In this document: positions 1,756 to 20,600 of the stretch, one piece after another | How the letters are laid out: each line of letters opens with the position of its first letter | How positions within the stretch are numbered: position 1 is the stretch's first letter | Assembly: GCF_035084215.1 (NCBI RefSeq) | Contig: NC_090358.1 | Span: 16,058,001 to 16,122,000, forward strand | Direction of reading: 5' to 3' | Source: Heptranchias perlo | Taxonomy: Eukaryota | DNA length: 64,000 bases | Translations under genes and position numbers: made by a program | Notes under the pieces: model-generated | Told to the model about the DNA's origin: nothing | Database searches by the model: none | Seen by the model: only the letters and a program-made list of their open reading frames with translations

Positions 1756-1905
1756 TCAAATTAAATCTTCTTCTGAAGAACTGCTGTCTCCCCGATCCCT
1801 ATATTCTCGATAGGTTTGAGCAACTGCACCTTCCGGGTTAAAGTTCATTATTTTAATGTTCAATCTTTGTGTTAGTTTTTCTGCTGCTAACCTGGCCTGT
1901 GTAGA
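1756..1905 (-). CDS. POLR2M: POLR2M last coding exon (150 nt incl. stop)
   Basis: Acceptor ttttacag|[55 protein letters not shown]. Confidence 0.93.
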   Translation of the reverse strand, partial: STQARLAAEKLTQRLNIKIMNFNPEGAVAQTYREYRDRGDSSSSEEDLI

Positions 1906-4900
1906 CTGTAAAAGAGAATGTTTTTATTAATTTGGCAGTCAAGGCAAAAAAAATCTAACAGTTTCCTTTTACTACATAAGTGGTTTATTTACTGGACATA
2001 CTCATGTATATCAGTTCACCACTTTTGAACAAAACCTTGTTTGATACGACCAATGAGAAGCTAGTAGAAGGAATTCGAATACCAAGCTCTATTACAATAC
2101 TCAGTCTTAAGATCACTATTTCTTGGACTGAAGTAGTGTGAAAGTAAATAATCACATACTTTTTTTTGAAGTACTAAAAGAGATTAGGTTGCCATACAAA
2201 CAGATTAAGAGATTTATCACTGAAGACACTGCTTGCATTTGCATTTCCCTTATGGATTAAATAAGGGAAGATTAGAGCTCAGATTGTTACTACAAGCAAA
2301 CAATTTCATCCATTCAGTTCCATATGTGAACTGGAATACTGAATTTTTTTTAACGATGAGCAGAGTTTCCCCATACCCAAGTTCTTTATAAGCAAGTTCC
2401 ACTACATTACTGCCTTCAAGCACACAAAATATATTTAAACAGTATGGAATCAAGAGTTTAAATTCTGCGGTAATGGATTAAGGAAACAAAAGCAATTTAT
2501 AAATTAGGGTTAAAATGGAAATAGACATGAGTGCATTGTAATTTTATGGTAGTGTTTTGACAGTTATAAATGTTAATGCAAAGCATGTTTATTGAACGTG
2601 TTTTGCTCATAGCTCATACCTCATACTTTTGCTTCTGTGATATTTGTAGCTCTCCAGACTCTTCTAGAGACAGTAATTGAGCAGGAGAGTGGTAAAGTGG
2701 GGGTAGTCTAGCAGCTGTGATCTCATCAAGATGTTTCCGATCCCTTAGTTTTCGTTCTGCTGGGGACGGTTTCAGCGCTGATCTGCCAGGTGACTGGTCC
2801 GGAGATGAATGGGAGGATCCAGATATTGGGCTGAAGTAGAAAAAAATATAAACATAAATATTCACACTGAAACACAGACCATGACAAAGTTCATCTAGCC
2901 CATGAAAATTGCTCTATCCATCACATGGACAATGGGAGCCTTACACAGGCAACGTTTTACAGCTCACTTTTCTGGGATTGCATAATATTACAGTATTTAA
3001 AAAGAGCTCTATTTAGTACTATTGACAGAAGAACTGGCAATGGATTCTACTAAAATCTTTCATCGTTAATTGTAAGCAGAATAGTACTGCTACTACACCA
3101 GGGCTGCAGTTTGCATGTGAACAAGCAAAACTATAGCTGCCCATTCCTGCTCGCCTGCAGCTTGACCTAAAGGCACAGTGGAGCAGAAATGGCATAAGAA
3201 TAGGATAGATTTCCAATTATTGAATGAGACTACCTTAAGATTTACTGGTTAAAAAAAAAACAGGATACTTTCCCTTAACAGAACATGAAAGTAACAGACG
3301 AAAATAATAGACTGCAGAATACAACATATACTGACACCTGATAAACAATCCTGTAGTACCTTTTTACTTTAAGGCAGGAAATAACTAGTTTGCATGATTT
3401 TTAAAAAAATCATTAGGTTATCTAAAGAGTAGAATCACAAGTATATTCAGTGCTGATCCTCCTAGCTGTTGAGTCACTGTTCAACTTTTTTTTTAAAAAT
3501 TGTGTAAAGTGAAGCCTCATTAAAAGGCCAGTGAAGTCTTGTTATGTCCACACAGAGACACAAAGGCAGACATGCACCAGTGAGGGTTTTATCTTGTAAA
3601 ACAGCACTGGGATTAAAATGTCTGAAATGTGAGCTCTCAAGTTCCTGTGGATTTCTATCCCTGTATTCTTGTGATAAGCTTATAAAATTCTGAAATTATA
3701 GGCCCTAAAAAAAATTCTGAATCTAAATTACACGATCTAACAATGCACAGAAAATTCAGCAAATAACCAGATCCAGATGCATATACGTTACCTCAAACCA
3801 GTGAAAAACTTACTGGTTAGCTTTGAATGGTGCTCTTTTCACCATTGGGTTCTTGGCTCTCTGCTCCAATATGTCAATGTAATGAGGAATTTTCTTCACT
3901 TGGTAGTGCAGAGTTTGAAAAGGATTGTCATTAAACTTTACATTGCTGCTTAAAGTTGGTTCTTCATGTATTTTATGATGTACTTTTCTGTGCCCATTAT
4001 CTGTCAGAGTGACTTTGTCAAGTCTATCACTAAGCAAATCAGTTCTGCTTACAAAATCTGCTTCCAGGTCATTTGCGATGTTATGTGGATGGATGTGATT
4101 GGTCTTTTCCTGCTTTAGATCTATGGTTCTCTGGCTCTCCAGCCCAGAATCAAAAGAGTTCTCACTTTTTGTAGCACTTGTGTCTGTGGAGCTTCCTGAA
4201 GTTGCTTGCTCTTTCTCCAATATTCTGTGTTTCTCATGACGTAATTCTTGATTCTTAATGCAAACTTTGGAGCTTTCTTTGTTTATAGTTTCTTCGCCAT
4301 CAAACTTCGACAAAACATATCTATCTTTCTCAGCTTCATCACAATCCTTCAATATGTTTCTAATAACTTGCCCTGTTGTTAGAATTGAAGTTGCATTCTC
4401 ATTATGGAGGATCTCCTCGTCAGAGCTTCTCTCCCTCTGCTTCTTTTGGAACTCCAGTTTAACTACTGAAAGCAGTTCAGTTGCTCTCTCTACTTCCTCA
4501 TGCTGAGCAATTGCTGCTTCTAGCTTTTGTATAAACTCAGTGATTCGTTTACCCTTGTCTGGCAGGCTCTGGATAAACTTCCTGAACAAATAAAAGACAA
4601 TTAGATAGTGCTAGTTTACCAAGTTTCTGCTAAGGAATCAGATACATATTTGAAGAGAGGCAGGTCCATTTAATCTAGACTTTCAATAACCTGATTTAAG
4701 TATACTTCTTCTGAAATTACTTTCTATATCACATTTTCACCCACAAGATTTTTAATAGGATTCATCAATGGAGTCCCATACAAGAATAATTTCTGGGCAG
4801 ACCACTTAGAAACCAGACTGTATGGTTCATAACATGATGGGTGGCAGATTTGTGGAGCACTGCGGGCATGAATCAAAGTCTAATGGCCCTTTGCTTTACA

Positions 4901-17575: not shown

Positions 17576-17660
17576 TCAGGGTGTCTGTCTCTGTAGACTT
17601 AATTCCATCAGCCTCATGTATGGGGTGATTGTATTTTGAATGCTTTTTACTGGAGTAATC
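17576..17660 (-). CDS. MYZAP: MYZAP exon 13 (terminal), ITPVKSIQNTITPYMRLMELSLQRQTP*
   Basis: tatacag|G ATT; TPYxRxxEL motif; TGA at 17576-17578. Confidence 0.9.
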
Positions 17661-20600
17661 CTGTATACCAACAAAATGTAAAGAATAAATTTGTTAGCTT
17701 TTACATACGCGGGAAGCTGAAAAGCAAAAAGTCCTGATTTTGACTTAGGGCCAGAGTCAGAAGGGCAGGGGCCGAGGTGAGCGGCAAACCGTCCTGACCT
17801 TGGCACCGTGAGACCCAGGAGGGTTTAAAACCCAGGCCTCGCCCTGGTCGGTTGCCCACCTAATACCAGCAAGAAGCAGCAGCAGTCCGGCGGGCAGGAA
17901 CATAATGTTGGGCAGCAGGTAAGGTCATGGGGAAGGAGTTTCAGAAGCACTTCATGATCGGGAGGACCCTGCCATTTTCCAGCAGGTGTCCTAACCTGCT
18001 TGCTCAGAAGAGCAGGTTAAAATAGAAGACTGCAGGAAGGGGGTTACGTCAGCGGGTAATTCCCTCAGGTGATTTTAACTGCTCGCTGTCCAAGTTTCTG
18101 CCGAGCAGGCAGGGTTAAAATCAGACCAAAGATATTCAATAGAATGAGGATTACATCAAGCAAAAAAAGAGTACCATGAAAATGAAGAGTGGTAAACAGT
18201 CCCATAAACAGTAAGTGTTTTCAAAGAGTGGCTGAACGAACGTGTAGCACAAACATAGATTCCCAACCAGAGGGCTAGAACTTCAGTCCAGGTAACCAGG
18301 CCATATCAGTGGGACTATGACAGTTCTTCCCTGGGCTGCTTAATGATTTTTAATCACAAATACATATCATTTATTGGCTGATTTCTACATTTTTCCCTCA
18401 GTTATCTCCCTCCAGTTAATATTTCCGCATTAAGCCTTTCATCAGGACAGTTAACTTATCTGTTCTCTCCACAGATGCTGACTGTCAAGGAAGTTATGCT
18501 AAACCTTTATAAATCACTGGTTAGGCCTCAGTTAACTGTGCTAATTGTGTCCAATTCTGGGCATCGCACTTTGGGAAGGATGTCAAGACCTTGGAGAGGA
18601 TGCAGAGGAGATTTACCTAAATGGTGCCAGGGATAAAGGACTTCAGTTATGTGGAAAGACCGATTGTTCTCCTTGCAGTAGAGAAAGTTAGGGGGAAATT
18701 TAATAGGGGCGTTCAAAATTATGAAGGGCTTTGATAGAGTAAATAATGAGAAACATTTCCACTGGCAGGAGAGTCGGTAACCAAAGGACACAGATTTAAG
18801 GTAATTGGCAAAAGAACCAGAAGGGAGATGTGGAGAATTTTTTTACGCAGCACGTTGTTATGATCAGGAATGTGCTGCCTGAAAGGGTGATGAAAGCAGA
18901 TTCAAGAGTGACTTTCAAAAGGGAATTGGATAAATACTTGAAAGGAAAAATTTGCAGGACGATGGGGATAGAGTAGGAGAGTGGAACTAATTGGATAGCT
19001 CTTTCAAAGAGCTGGGACAGGCAGGATGGGCTGAATGGCCTCCATTGTATGATTCTATGACTTGCTGTGTTTCCAGCATTTTCTATTTATGTTTCAGAAT
19101 TTGCAGTTTTTTGCTTTGTATTTAACATAATACAATTAACTTCCATATTTTTGTCAAGTTTTGCATATTTTGTAGCATGTGCACATTTTGAACAACGTGT
19201 GAAAAGCACCACAGTTATCTGCCAGAAGTACAGAAAGTTTACTCAGTAGGGCCAACTCCCCGATAAGGAGCAGTGTTTGCAGGGAGAGATAGTCTGGATA
19301 TCATAGGCCAGTAGACCTCGATTTTCCATCCATTTCAAGGTCTCCCAGCCTGCGATTTCTCACCCAGTGCTCTCAGTGAGTGCTGCTCCTCACAGCTGGC
19401 ACCCAATCAGAACTTAGTTTGCAAACAGTTGTCCTCCTCAAACTTTAAAAAAAATTATGTTCATGGGATGTGGGCATCGCTGGCAAGACCAGCATTTATT
19501 GCCCATCCCTAATTGCCCTTGAGAAGGTGGTGGTGAACCGCCGCAGTCCGTGTGGTGAAGGTTCTCCCACAGTGCTGTTAGGCAGGGAGTTCCAGGATTT
19601 TGATCCAGTGACAATGAAGGAACGGCGATATATTTCCAAGTTGGGATGGCGTGTGATTTGGAGGGGAACATGCAGGTGGTGTTGTTCTCCTTGGATCATT
19701 CACTTTGGATAAGAACAATCTCACACTTTAATTTTGAGTTACTTCTGGTATGTTTCTTTATGCTGAAGAGCACAATTAAACCAGTTTCTAAAATGATGAC
19801 AGAATATAACAAGAAGGGTTATATGTTACCTGATGGGGCTATCATATGACACCACTTGTTCCCTGGTTTCCACAGTCCTTTGTTGATCCAGCGACATCAT
19901 ATAGTTCAGCTTGTCCTGTAGTTCTTTATTCTAGGCATCAAATGCACCATCAGTAATTTATCAGGAAATAAAACTAACATTTATATTGTAGGAACATTTT
20001 TTATATAGAATTCAGGTATGTACCTAATCTATTGTTGAAATCAGTCAGATTAGAGAGTTTTGCCTCAGTAAGGCTTTAAACTTGCATGACTGTCCACTTA
20101 TTTATGTACTCAATTACATTTTATCTGTAAATGATGCCATGGGAGTTCCACTAATAAATATTATAATGTTACTTTATAACCTTACAGTATAGACATAATT
20201 TTTTTTTCTATTTTCTATGATGCTATTTAATGTTATTGATTGTTTCTTGGTTAAAGCACCTCAGCTGCACCTTTTGCACATAACTCCTATTAATGGCCAT
20301 GACAATATTTAAAGCATGACCAAAACCTATTTGGATATTGAAATCATCTGATTAATATTGCAGAAGGAACAGGAGCCAATGCTTTGATTTCTGCCCAAAT
20401 TGGGGTGTATTGGTACATTTGTGCCCTGCATGTCCACCCTCAACTGCTGAGGGGGAAATATCCCTTAAATTCAAATGCACACAACAATGCAAGTGACATC
20501 AAACCTGCCAATGATCATTAAAACCTGGAAGACTTCCTTTATTTCCTTCCCACCCTCAAGGATGAACATGCAAGATGATTGACATATTCAGGATGCACTG

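What the first reader, a model, noticed from the sequence alone, without database searches (positions are those of the whole stretch)
1756..19930. GCOM1-type read-through architecture (MYZAP-POLR2M) appears frame-intact in a probable cartilaginous fish
Seen: the MYZAP exon 12 donor (19830, AG|GT) is phase 2. POLR2M exon 2 (4581) and exon 3 (2830) acceptors are also phase 2. Skipping MYZAP exon 13 and POLR2M exon 1 gives open fusions of 807 aa (...[15 protein letters not shown]...) or 551 aa (...DSPI-S-PISG...). Known: the mammalian GRINL1A/GCOM1 complex unit makes such MYZAP-POLR2M chimeras (Gcom proteins). Inference: the chimeric unit joining a junctional coiled-coil protein to a Pol II regulator could predate the split of jawed vertebrates. 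Conserved intron phases alone do not prove the fusion is expressed.
Basis: partly seen in the sequence, partly recalled or inferred. Interest (0 to 1): 0.7.

Follow-up and report, generated by a model that had tools for sequence, protein, structure and literature searches.

The report
Shark MYZAP–POLR2M tandem, fusion-ready
A shark carries the cell-junction gene MYZAP directly upstream of the RNA polymerase II regulator POLR2M, with splice frames that would allow the same fused proteins humans make (GCOM1), but the shark RNA seen here shows only the two separate messages, so a minor fused message is likely yet unproven.

Summary
The window holds MYZAP and POLR2M of a sevengill shark: a Heptranchias perlo database protein aligns to every exon. 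The phase-2 donor (19830) and acceptors (4581, 2830) are real, and both joins are open. Corrections: MYZAP has 14 coding exons, so the fusions are 835 and 579 aa (807/551 only without an 84-nt exon), and its last exon is transcribed to about 14,190, not 17,345. The frame match weighs little: 15 of 39 donor-acceptor joins are open, and phases are inherited. The exon-2 junction is already annotated in a sawshark, three ray-finned fishes, 38 birds, an alligator and a lizard, but in only 1 of 17 named cartilaginous fishes; such models may be copied from mammalian proteins. In four transcript-like runs the displayed contigs are the two separate mRNAs. The joint table was swamped by repeats (15 of 335 rows shown), so a rare fusion is neither shown nor excluded. 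Verdict: shark ortholog of the known GCOM1 locus; layout ancient, expression untested. The scan held no earlier MYZAP or GCOM1 note.

The parts
62559..62621 (-). MYZAP coding exon 1 (start codon at 62621)
   Evidence: tblastn of P0001; boundaries
45249..45332 (-).
   Evidence: absent from P0096 and P0104, present in 9 of 11 aligned chondrichthyan(-like) proteins
22549..62362 (-). MYZAP exons 2-12 (62362-62270, 45332-45249, 44201-44055, 42480-42388, 37799-37686, 35770-35618, 31820-31695, 29676-29548, 27073-26988, 23765-23660, 22632-22549); E/K/Q/R/L-rich, likely coiled-coil body
19830..19930 (-). MYZAP penultimate exon (13 of 14; human 12 of 13), phase-2 donor at 19830: the upstream side of the predicted fusion joint
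14192..17660 (-). MYZAP terminal exon: 85 coding nt (stop at 17576) plus about 3.4 kb of 3' UTR; AATAAA at 17370 and 14210. Skipped in the predicted fusion
   Evidence: (table 8)
6955..14191 (.). Intergenic gap of about 7.2 kb, rich in repeats, that read-through would have to cross
6780..6954 (-). POLR2M exon 1 (ATG at 6889, phase-2 donor at 6780) in a GC/CpG-rich stretch; skipped in the predicted fusion
   Evidence: X2 record 9 joins 6954-6779 to exon 2
3814..4581 (-). POLR2M exon 2, 768 nt, phase 2-2; carries LPDKG and Pfam GCOM2 (PF15328); acceptor of the 835-aa fusion
2620..2830 (-). POLR2M exon 3, phase 2-0; acceptor of the 579-aa fusion
1756..1905 (-). POLR2M exon 4 coding part; holds the stretches that align to human NES2 and CAS

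Best explanation
This is the shark ortholog of the human GRINL1A/GCOM1 locus: two neighbouring genes whose displayed RNA contigs are separate messages, and whose inherited phase-2 splice sites would let a likely minor read-through message skip the last MYZAP exon and the first POLR2M exon. Shown: gene order, exon phases, open frames of 835 and 579 aa, and the separate spliced messages. Inferred: polymerase sometimes escapes the MYZAP poly(A) sites, crosses about 7 kb, and the 19830 donor is spliced over 15.2 kb to POLR2M exon 2 or over 17.0 kb to exon 3. The 835-aa product would put the Myozap coiled coil in front of Gdown1 minus its first 37 residues, keeping LPDKG and the C-terminal part. 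The 579-aa product would keep only the last 119 residues, with the export and cytoplasmic-anchoring motifs. Either would likely stay in the cytoplasm. The frame match needs no selection on the fusion.
For: Gene models and phases. Human canonical GCOM1 is 765 aa in 15 exons and another transcript has 14 exons (PMC8656111 passages), which fits 12+3 and 12+2 exons, the same joins (my arithmetic). The exon-2 join is annotated in 47 and the exon-3 join in 3 of 248 stored proteins, among them sawshark P0003, bichir, arowana, killifish, 38 birds, alligator, lizard and, for exon 3, sablefish 'isoform X2'. Skipping the last exon of one gene and the first of the next is a common read-through pattern (42% of conjoined mRNAs, PMC2953495 section 6). 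The terminal MYZAP acceptor is poorer in pyrimidines (0.59) than POLR2M acceptors 2 and 3 (0.76, 0.82; crude score). Separate messages dominate: X2 record 9 joins exon 1 to exon 2, and bin depths fit exon 1 as the free end in X2 and X3 (3.89 vs 3.88, 4.43 vs 4.43) and the canonical MYZAP last joint in X1 and X2 (0.95 vs 0.97, 10.12 vs 10.4). In human heart MYZAP exons, not GCOM1-specific ones, are highly expressed (PMC9528970 passage).
Against: No fused contig or joint was among the rows displayed (15 of 335 joints, 24 of 3564 loose ends, 32 of 36,351 pieces). Only 1 of 17 named cartilaginous fishes has the direct join; 13 appear only as separate genes and 3 as merged models running through exon 1. 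None of the 5 shark- or skate-like Logan-sourced proteins (P0007, P0009, P0010, P0096, P0103) is fused. Depth book-keeping fits less well for X1 exon 1 (6.56 vs 9.34) and for X5 (2.62 vs 1.75; 1.91 vs 4.32). PMC2953495 found no significant conservation of human conjoined-gene junctions in fish or frog transcripts, at a 90% identity cut-off.
Confidence: 0.58

Rival explanations
1. Sharks make no such fusion. The phases are simply inherited, and fused fish and shark models arise because annotation pipelines align mammalian GCOM1 proteins across the two genes.
For: 15 of 39 joins are open. 14 of 66 proteins holding both genes are merges through POLR2M exon 1. The model for this very species (P0001, 980 aa) runs up to the MYZAP stop codon and needs two joints without GT-AG ends in this window, which shows that false merges occur here. 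13 of 17 named cartilaginous fishes gave only separate models. All displayed exon contigs are canonical.
Against: Many bird models and the sablefish model carry isoform numbers, which I recall usually rests on transcript support (recalled, not tested). The direct join recurs in shark, bichir, teleosts, crocodilian, lizard and birds. Contigs drop rare forms (tool text), and the joint table was cut.
Confidence: 0.25
2. The fused protein is a selected third product of the locus, kept since the last common ancestor of jawed vertebrates, tethering Gdown1 surfaces to cell junctions or neuronal scaffolds, and it helps keep the two genes adjacent.
For: Tandem order and both frames persist from chimaera to birds and humans. 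Only 16% of human conjoined genes keep both parental frames (48 of 297; PMC2953495). The 835-aa form keeps LPDKG, needed for tight Pol II binding and TTF2 blocking (PMC4007455 passages). [quoted passage not shown]
Against: No shark transcript, peptide or selection signal specific to the fusion was found. Intron phases and gene order persist for many reasons; Myzap belongs to a wider conserved block with Cgnl1, Aqp9 and Aldh1a2 used for synteny in PMC10879103 (passage). Human disease variants are explained by MYZAP alone in PMC9528970.
Confidence: 0.17

Closest known systems
Human GRINL1A complex transcription unit / GCOM1 (MYZAP-POLR2M; 765-aa 15-exon and 14-exon transcripts; PMC8656111, Roginski 2004 and 2018 seen as citations only)
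   Same: Same gene order and strand, separate starts and ends for both genes, same predicted joins (penultimate MYZAP exon to POLR2M exon 2 or 3), both frames kept.
   Different: Shark MYZAP has one extra 84-nt exon and Gdown1 is longer (412 vs 368 aa), so the fusions would be 835 and 579 aa. No counterpart of the human 'middle' exons was identified. The fused message is known in human but was not seen here.
Pristiophorus japonicus model P0003 (837 aa, 'myocardial zonula adherens protein-like') and fused models in birds, alligator, lizard, bichir and teleosts
   Same: Exactly the exon-2 join, residue for residue at the junction.
   Different: These are predicted database models whose transcript support I could not see.
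Conjoined / read-through genes (cis-splicing between adjacent genes; PMC2953495, PMC6764479)
   Same: [quoted passage not shown]
   Different: Those surveys centre on human and primates; PMC2953495 reported no significant junction conservation in fish.

Membership tests
GRINL1A/GCOM1 locus ortholog | MYZAP ortholog upstream | tested here: met
   487-aa, 14-exon gene; aligns with models named myocardial zonula adherens protein
GRINL1A/GCOM1 locus ortholog | POLR2M/Gdown1 ortholog downstream on the same strand | tested here: met
   412-aa, 4-exon gene; PF15328 at 105 bits over cut-off 27; P0003 matches human Gdown1 chain 28jc_M, E 7e-46
GRINL1A/GCOM1 locus ortholog | Both parent genes transcribed separately | tested here: met
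   Spliced contigs with POLR2M exon 1 and with the MYZAP terminal exon; the runs are RNA only by the tool's guess, but the contigs skip introns
GCOM1 complex transcription unit | In-frame join of penultimate MYZAP exon to POLR2M exon 2 or 3 is possible | tested here: met
   835 and 579 aa without internal stops
GCOM1 complex transcription unit | Combined transcript is actually made | tested here: inconclusive
   No fused row displayed; 15 of 335 joints shown, all in repeats; contigs drop rare forms
GCOM1 complex transcription unit | Middle exons between the two genes | tested here: inconclusive
   The only candidate (8367-8176, from merged model P0001) needs non-canonical joints
GCOM1 complex transcription unit | Fused protein is translated and functional | not testable with these tools
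   Needs proteomics, ribosome profiling or genetics

The most novel reading that the evidence does not exclude
A translated MYZAP-POLR2M chimera has been made and kept in all jawed vertebrates since before sharks and bony fishes split, linking a junctional coiled-coil scaffold to the Pol II-binding and cytoplasmic-anchoring parts of Gdown1; it would be an unusually old conserved read-through protein.
Probability: 0.17. Interest if true: 0.62.

Novelty: new member of a known kind. Interest (0 to 1): 0.27.

Why it matters
Read-through chimeras are mostly treated as young or as noise; one survey found no conservation of human junctions in fish (PMC2953495) and another discusses GCOM1 within a primate-centred set (PMC6764479). 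Junction reads from a shark would date the GCOM1 chimera to the base of jawed vertebrates and give a reason to test its function apart from MYZAP, a cardiomyopathy gene. Without such reads this is an ordinary conserved gene pair. A practical by-product: the database model for this species fuses the two genes wrongly under a myosin-like name.

Tried and rejected
Reads: one search listed no holder on record as RNA (8 runs, RNA by guess). laid 4 of them (X1, X2, X3, X5) at 86% likeness; repeats filled the tables, so not even the ordinary splice joints were listed and the fusion joint could not be read. I considered that undisplayed contig ends (128-189 nt) might be MYZAP sequence; bin depths fit exon 1 or exon 2 instead, so I rejected that. 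The search for short junction-spanning proteins gave 3 of 3 hits, none fused. The 150 best representatives added 3 exon-2 joins, 2 exon-3 joins, 1 merge and 1 other join, all without names or sources; P0118 looks patched at its junction. The 980-aa model P0001 was rejected as evidence of a real fusion. Cluster members could not be listed, so Logan members of fused clusters remain unseen. No whole genome is held, so copy number and wider synteny were not checked. Roginski 2004 and 2018 were not read. In the PMC6764479 supplement, presence or absence per species appears as empty cells (probably colour-coded), so GCOM1's placement there is unknown. Searches 'GRINL1A'+'shark' and 'GCOM1'+'teleost' gave 0 papers; searches listed none on non-mammalian GCOM1 chimeras by title or abstract start. 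No fold or complex prediction was run.
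Full report
Identity. A search with POLR2M exon 3 returned a Heptranchias perlo protein (P0001) at 100% identity. That protein aligns to the window over every exon, the few mismatches lying where alignments overrun exon ends. The window therefore holds shark MYZAP (start 62621, stop 17576) and POLR2M (start 6889, stop 1756), both on the minus strand. My exon models give a 487-aa MYZAP identical to P0001 residues 1-487 and a 412-aa POLR2M identical to its tail. 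Exon 2 scores 105 bits on Pfam GCOM2, and the sawshark homologue matches human Gdown1 in the PDB.

Observation. The donor at 19830 and the acceptors at 4581 and 2830 are phase 2, and both joins are open. A Logan-sourced MYZAP protein lacks that exon, so both forms are plausible. The join to exon 4 is out of frame.

Chance. 15 of 39 MYZAP-donor by POLR2M-acceptor joins are open. Intron phases rarely change among jawed vertebrates (my own knowledge), so once the human sites are compatible the shark sites are expected to be, fusion or not. The phase match is necessary but carries little weight. On the other side, only 48 of 297 human conjoined genes keep both frames (PMC2953495 passage).

Relatives. 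Of 248 proteins stored from four searches, 66 hold both genes: 47 join the penultimate MYZAP exon directly to POLR2M exon 2, 3 join it to exon 3, 14 are merged through exon 1, and 2 are other joins; 83 are POLR2M only, 54 MYZAP-like only and 45 matched neither probe. The 47 are 38 birds, an alligator, a lizard, bichir, arowana, killifish, the sawshark Pristiophorus (P0003) and 3 unnamed. This set is not a census: one search was aimed at the junction. Among 17 named cartilaginous fishes (my count over), 1 has the direct join, 3 have merged models and 13 appear only as separate genes. All named ones are predicted models. The model for this species needs two joints without GT-AG ends in the window and stops one codon short of the MYZAP stop, so false merges do occur at this locus. 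None of five shark- or skate-like Logan-sourced proteins is fused.

RNA. Eight runs hold the MYZAP last exon, none on record as RNA. I laid 4 (three of organism A, one sample; one of organism B). The contigs skip introns, so they behave as transcripts. X2 record 9 joins POLR2M exon 1 to exon 2; others join exons 2, 3 and 4. Undisplayed contig ends fit exon 1 by depth in X2 and X3, and less closely in X1 and X5. X2 record 12 carries the MYZAP terminal exon plus 994 further bases; exons 5-13 sum to 992, and its depth accounts for 10.12 of 10.4 in the bin of the penultimate exon. So the assembled majority paths are the two separate messages. UTR contigs reach 14192-14347 in all four runs, beside an AATAAA at 14210, leaving about 7.2 kb to the POLR2M start. 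The joint table showed 15 of 335 rows, all in repeats, and contigs drop rare forms, so a minor fusion is neither shown nor excluded.

How it would work. Inferred: escape from MYZAP poly(A) sites, then splicing over 15,248 or 16,999 nt. This is a common conjoined-gene pattern (PMC2953495 section 6). The terminal MYZAP acceptor is poorer in pyrimidines than the two POLR2M acceptors, a weak hint. The long product would lose Gdown1 residues 1-37 but keep LPDKG at residue 43, which in human Gdown1 supports tight Pol II binding and blocks TTF2 (PMC4007455 passages). Gdown1 has three Pol II interfaces (PMC13486763 section 7), but I found no residue ranges, so which survive is not settled. Both products keep exon 4, whose sequence aligns to human NES2 and keeps two of the three CAS arginines (PMC9728996 passages), so cytoplasmic retention is likely.

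Known. Human GCOM1 has a 765-aa 15-exon transcript and a 14-exon one (PMC8656111 passages), matching these two joins by exon count. PMC9528970 notes that GCOM1-specific exons are not highly expressed in heart (passage). PMC6764479 lists GCOM1 among read-through fusions (passages, results part 1, section 8 and supplement parts 35 and 38), but its per-species cells could not be read. Roginski 2004 and 2018 I saw only as citations; they may already discuss non-mammalian orthologs. PMC13187750, PMC13273059, PMC10879103 and the TOGA2 preprint were seen as passages; only the synteny line of PMC10879103 was used. Searches found no open paper pairing these genes with sharks or teleosts.

Verdict. The layout is real and old, and is already implicit in public annotations. 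The claim that would be interesting, an expressed and conserved chimera, remains untested. New member of a known kind; interest 0.27.

Noticed in passing
P0001 versus window 17579, 8367-8176, 6940: The database model for this species merges MYZAP and POLR2M into a 980-aa 'myosin heavy chain, striated muscle-like' protein through two non-canonical joints; likely a mis-annotation.
   Followed up: yes
window 27073-26988: MYZAP exon 10 is three codons shorter than in other sharks and ends in a weak donor (TG|GTGCTG), giving W where 9 of 10 aligned relatives have R; the length of X2 record 12 fits its inclusion.
   Followed up: partly
window 6908-6870: An upstream out-of-frame ATG in the POLR2M leader opens a 12-codon frame overlapping the main start; much shorter than the 86-codon overlapping frame noted for mammals in finding e1-8090208.
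   Followed up: partly
window 6613-6769: GC-rich 23-bp minisatellite (6.8 copies, 97% matches) just inside POLR2M intron 1.
   Followed up: no
window 1-1755 and beyond: X1 record 1 runs about 4.7 kb past position 1001, suggesting a POLR2M 3' UTR over 5 kb that leaves the window.
   Followed up: no
window 15300-15730: A high-copy repeat sits inside the long MYZAP 3' UTR and breaks the contigs in all four runs.
   Followed up: no
window 3972-4002: POLR2M exon-2 contigs of X2 and X3 both end at 3994; cause unknown (variant or minor splice site).
   Followed up: no
window 25874-25044: Reverse-transcriptase-like frames in a MYZAP intron, probably a LINE fragment (label from recall).
   Followed up: no
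P0046, P0047, P0048, P0038: Teleost MYZAP models carry a long proline/serine-rich stretch after the penultimate exon that sharks lack.
   Followed up: no
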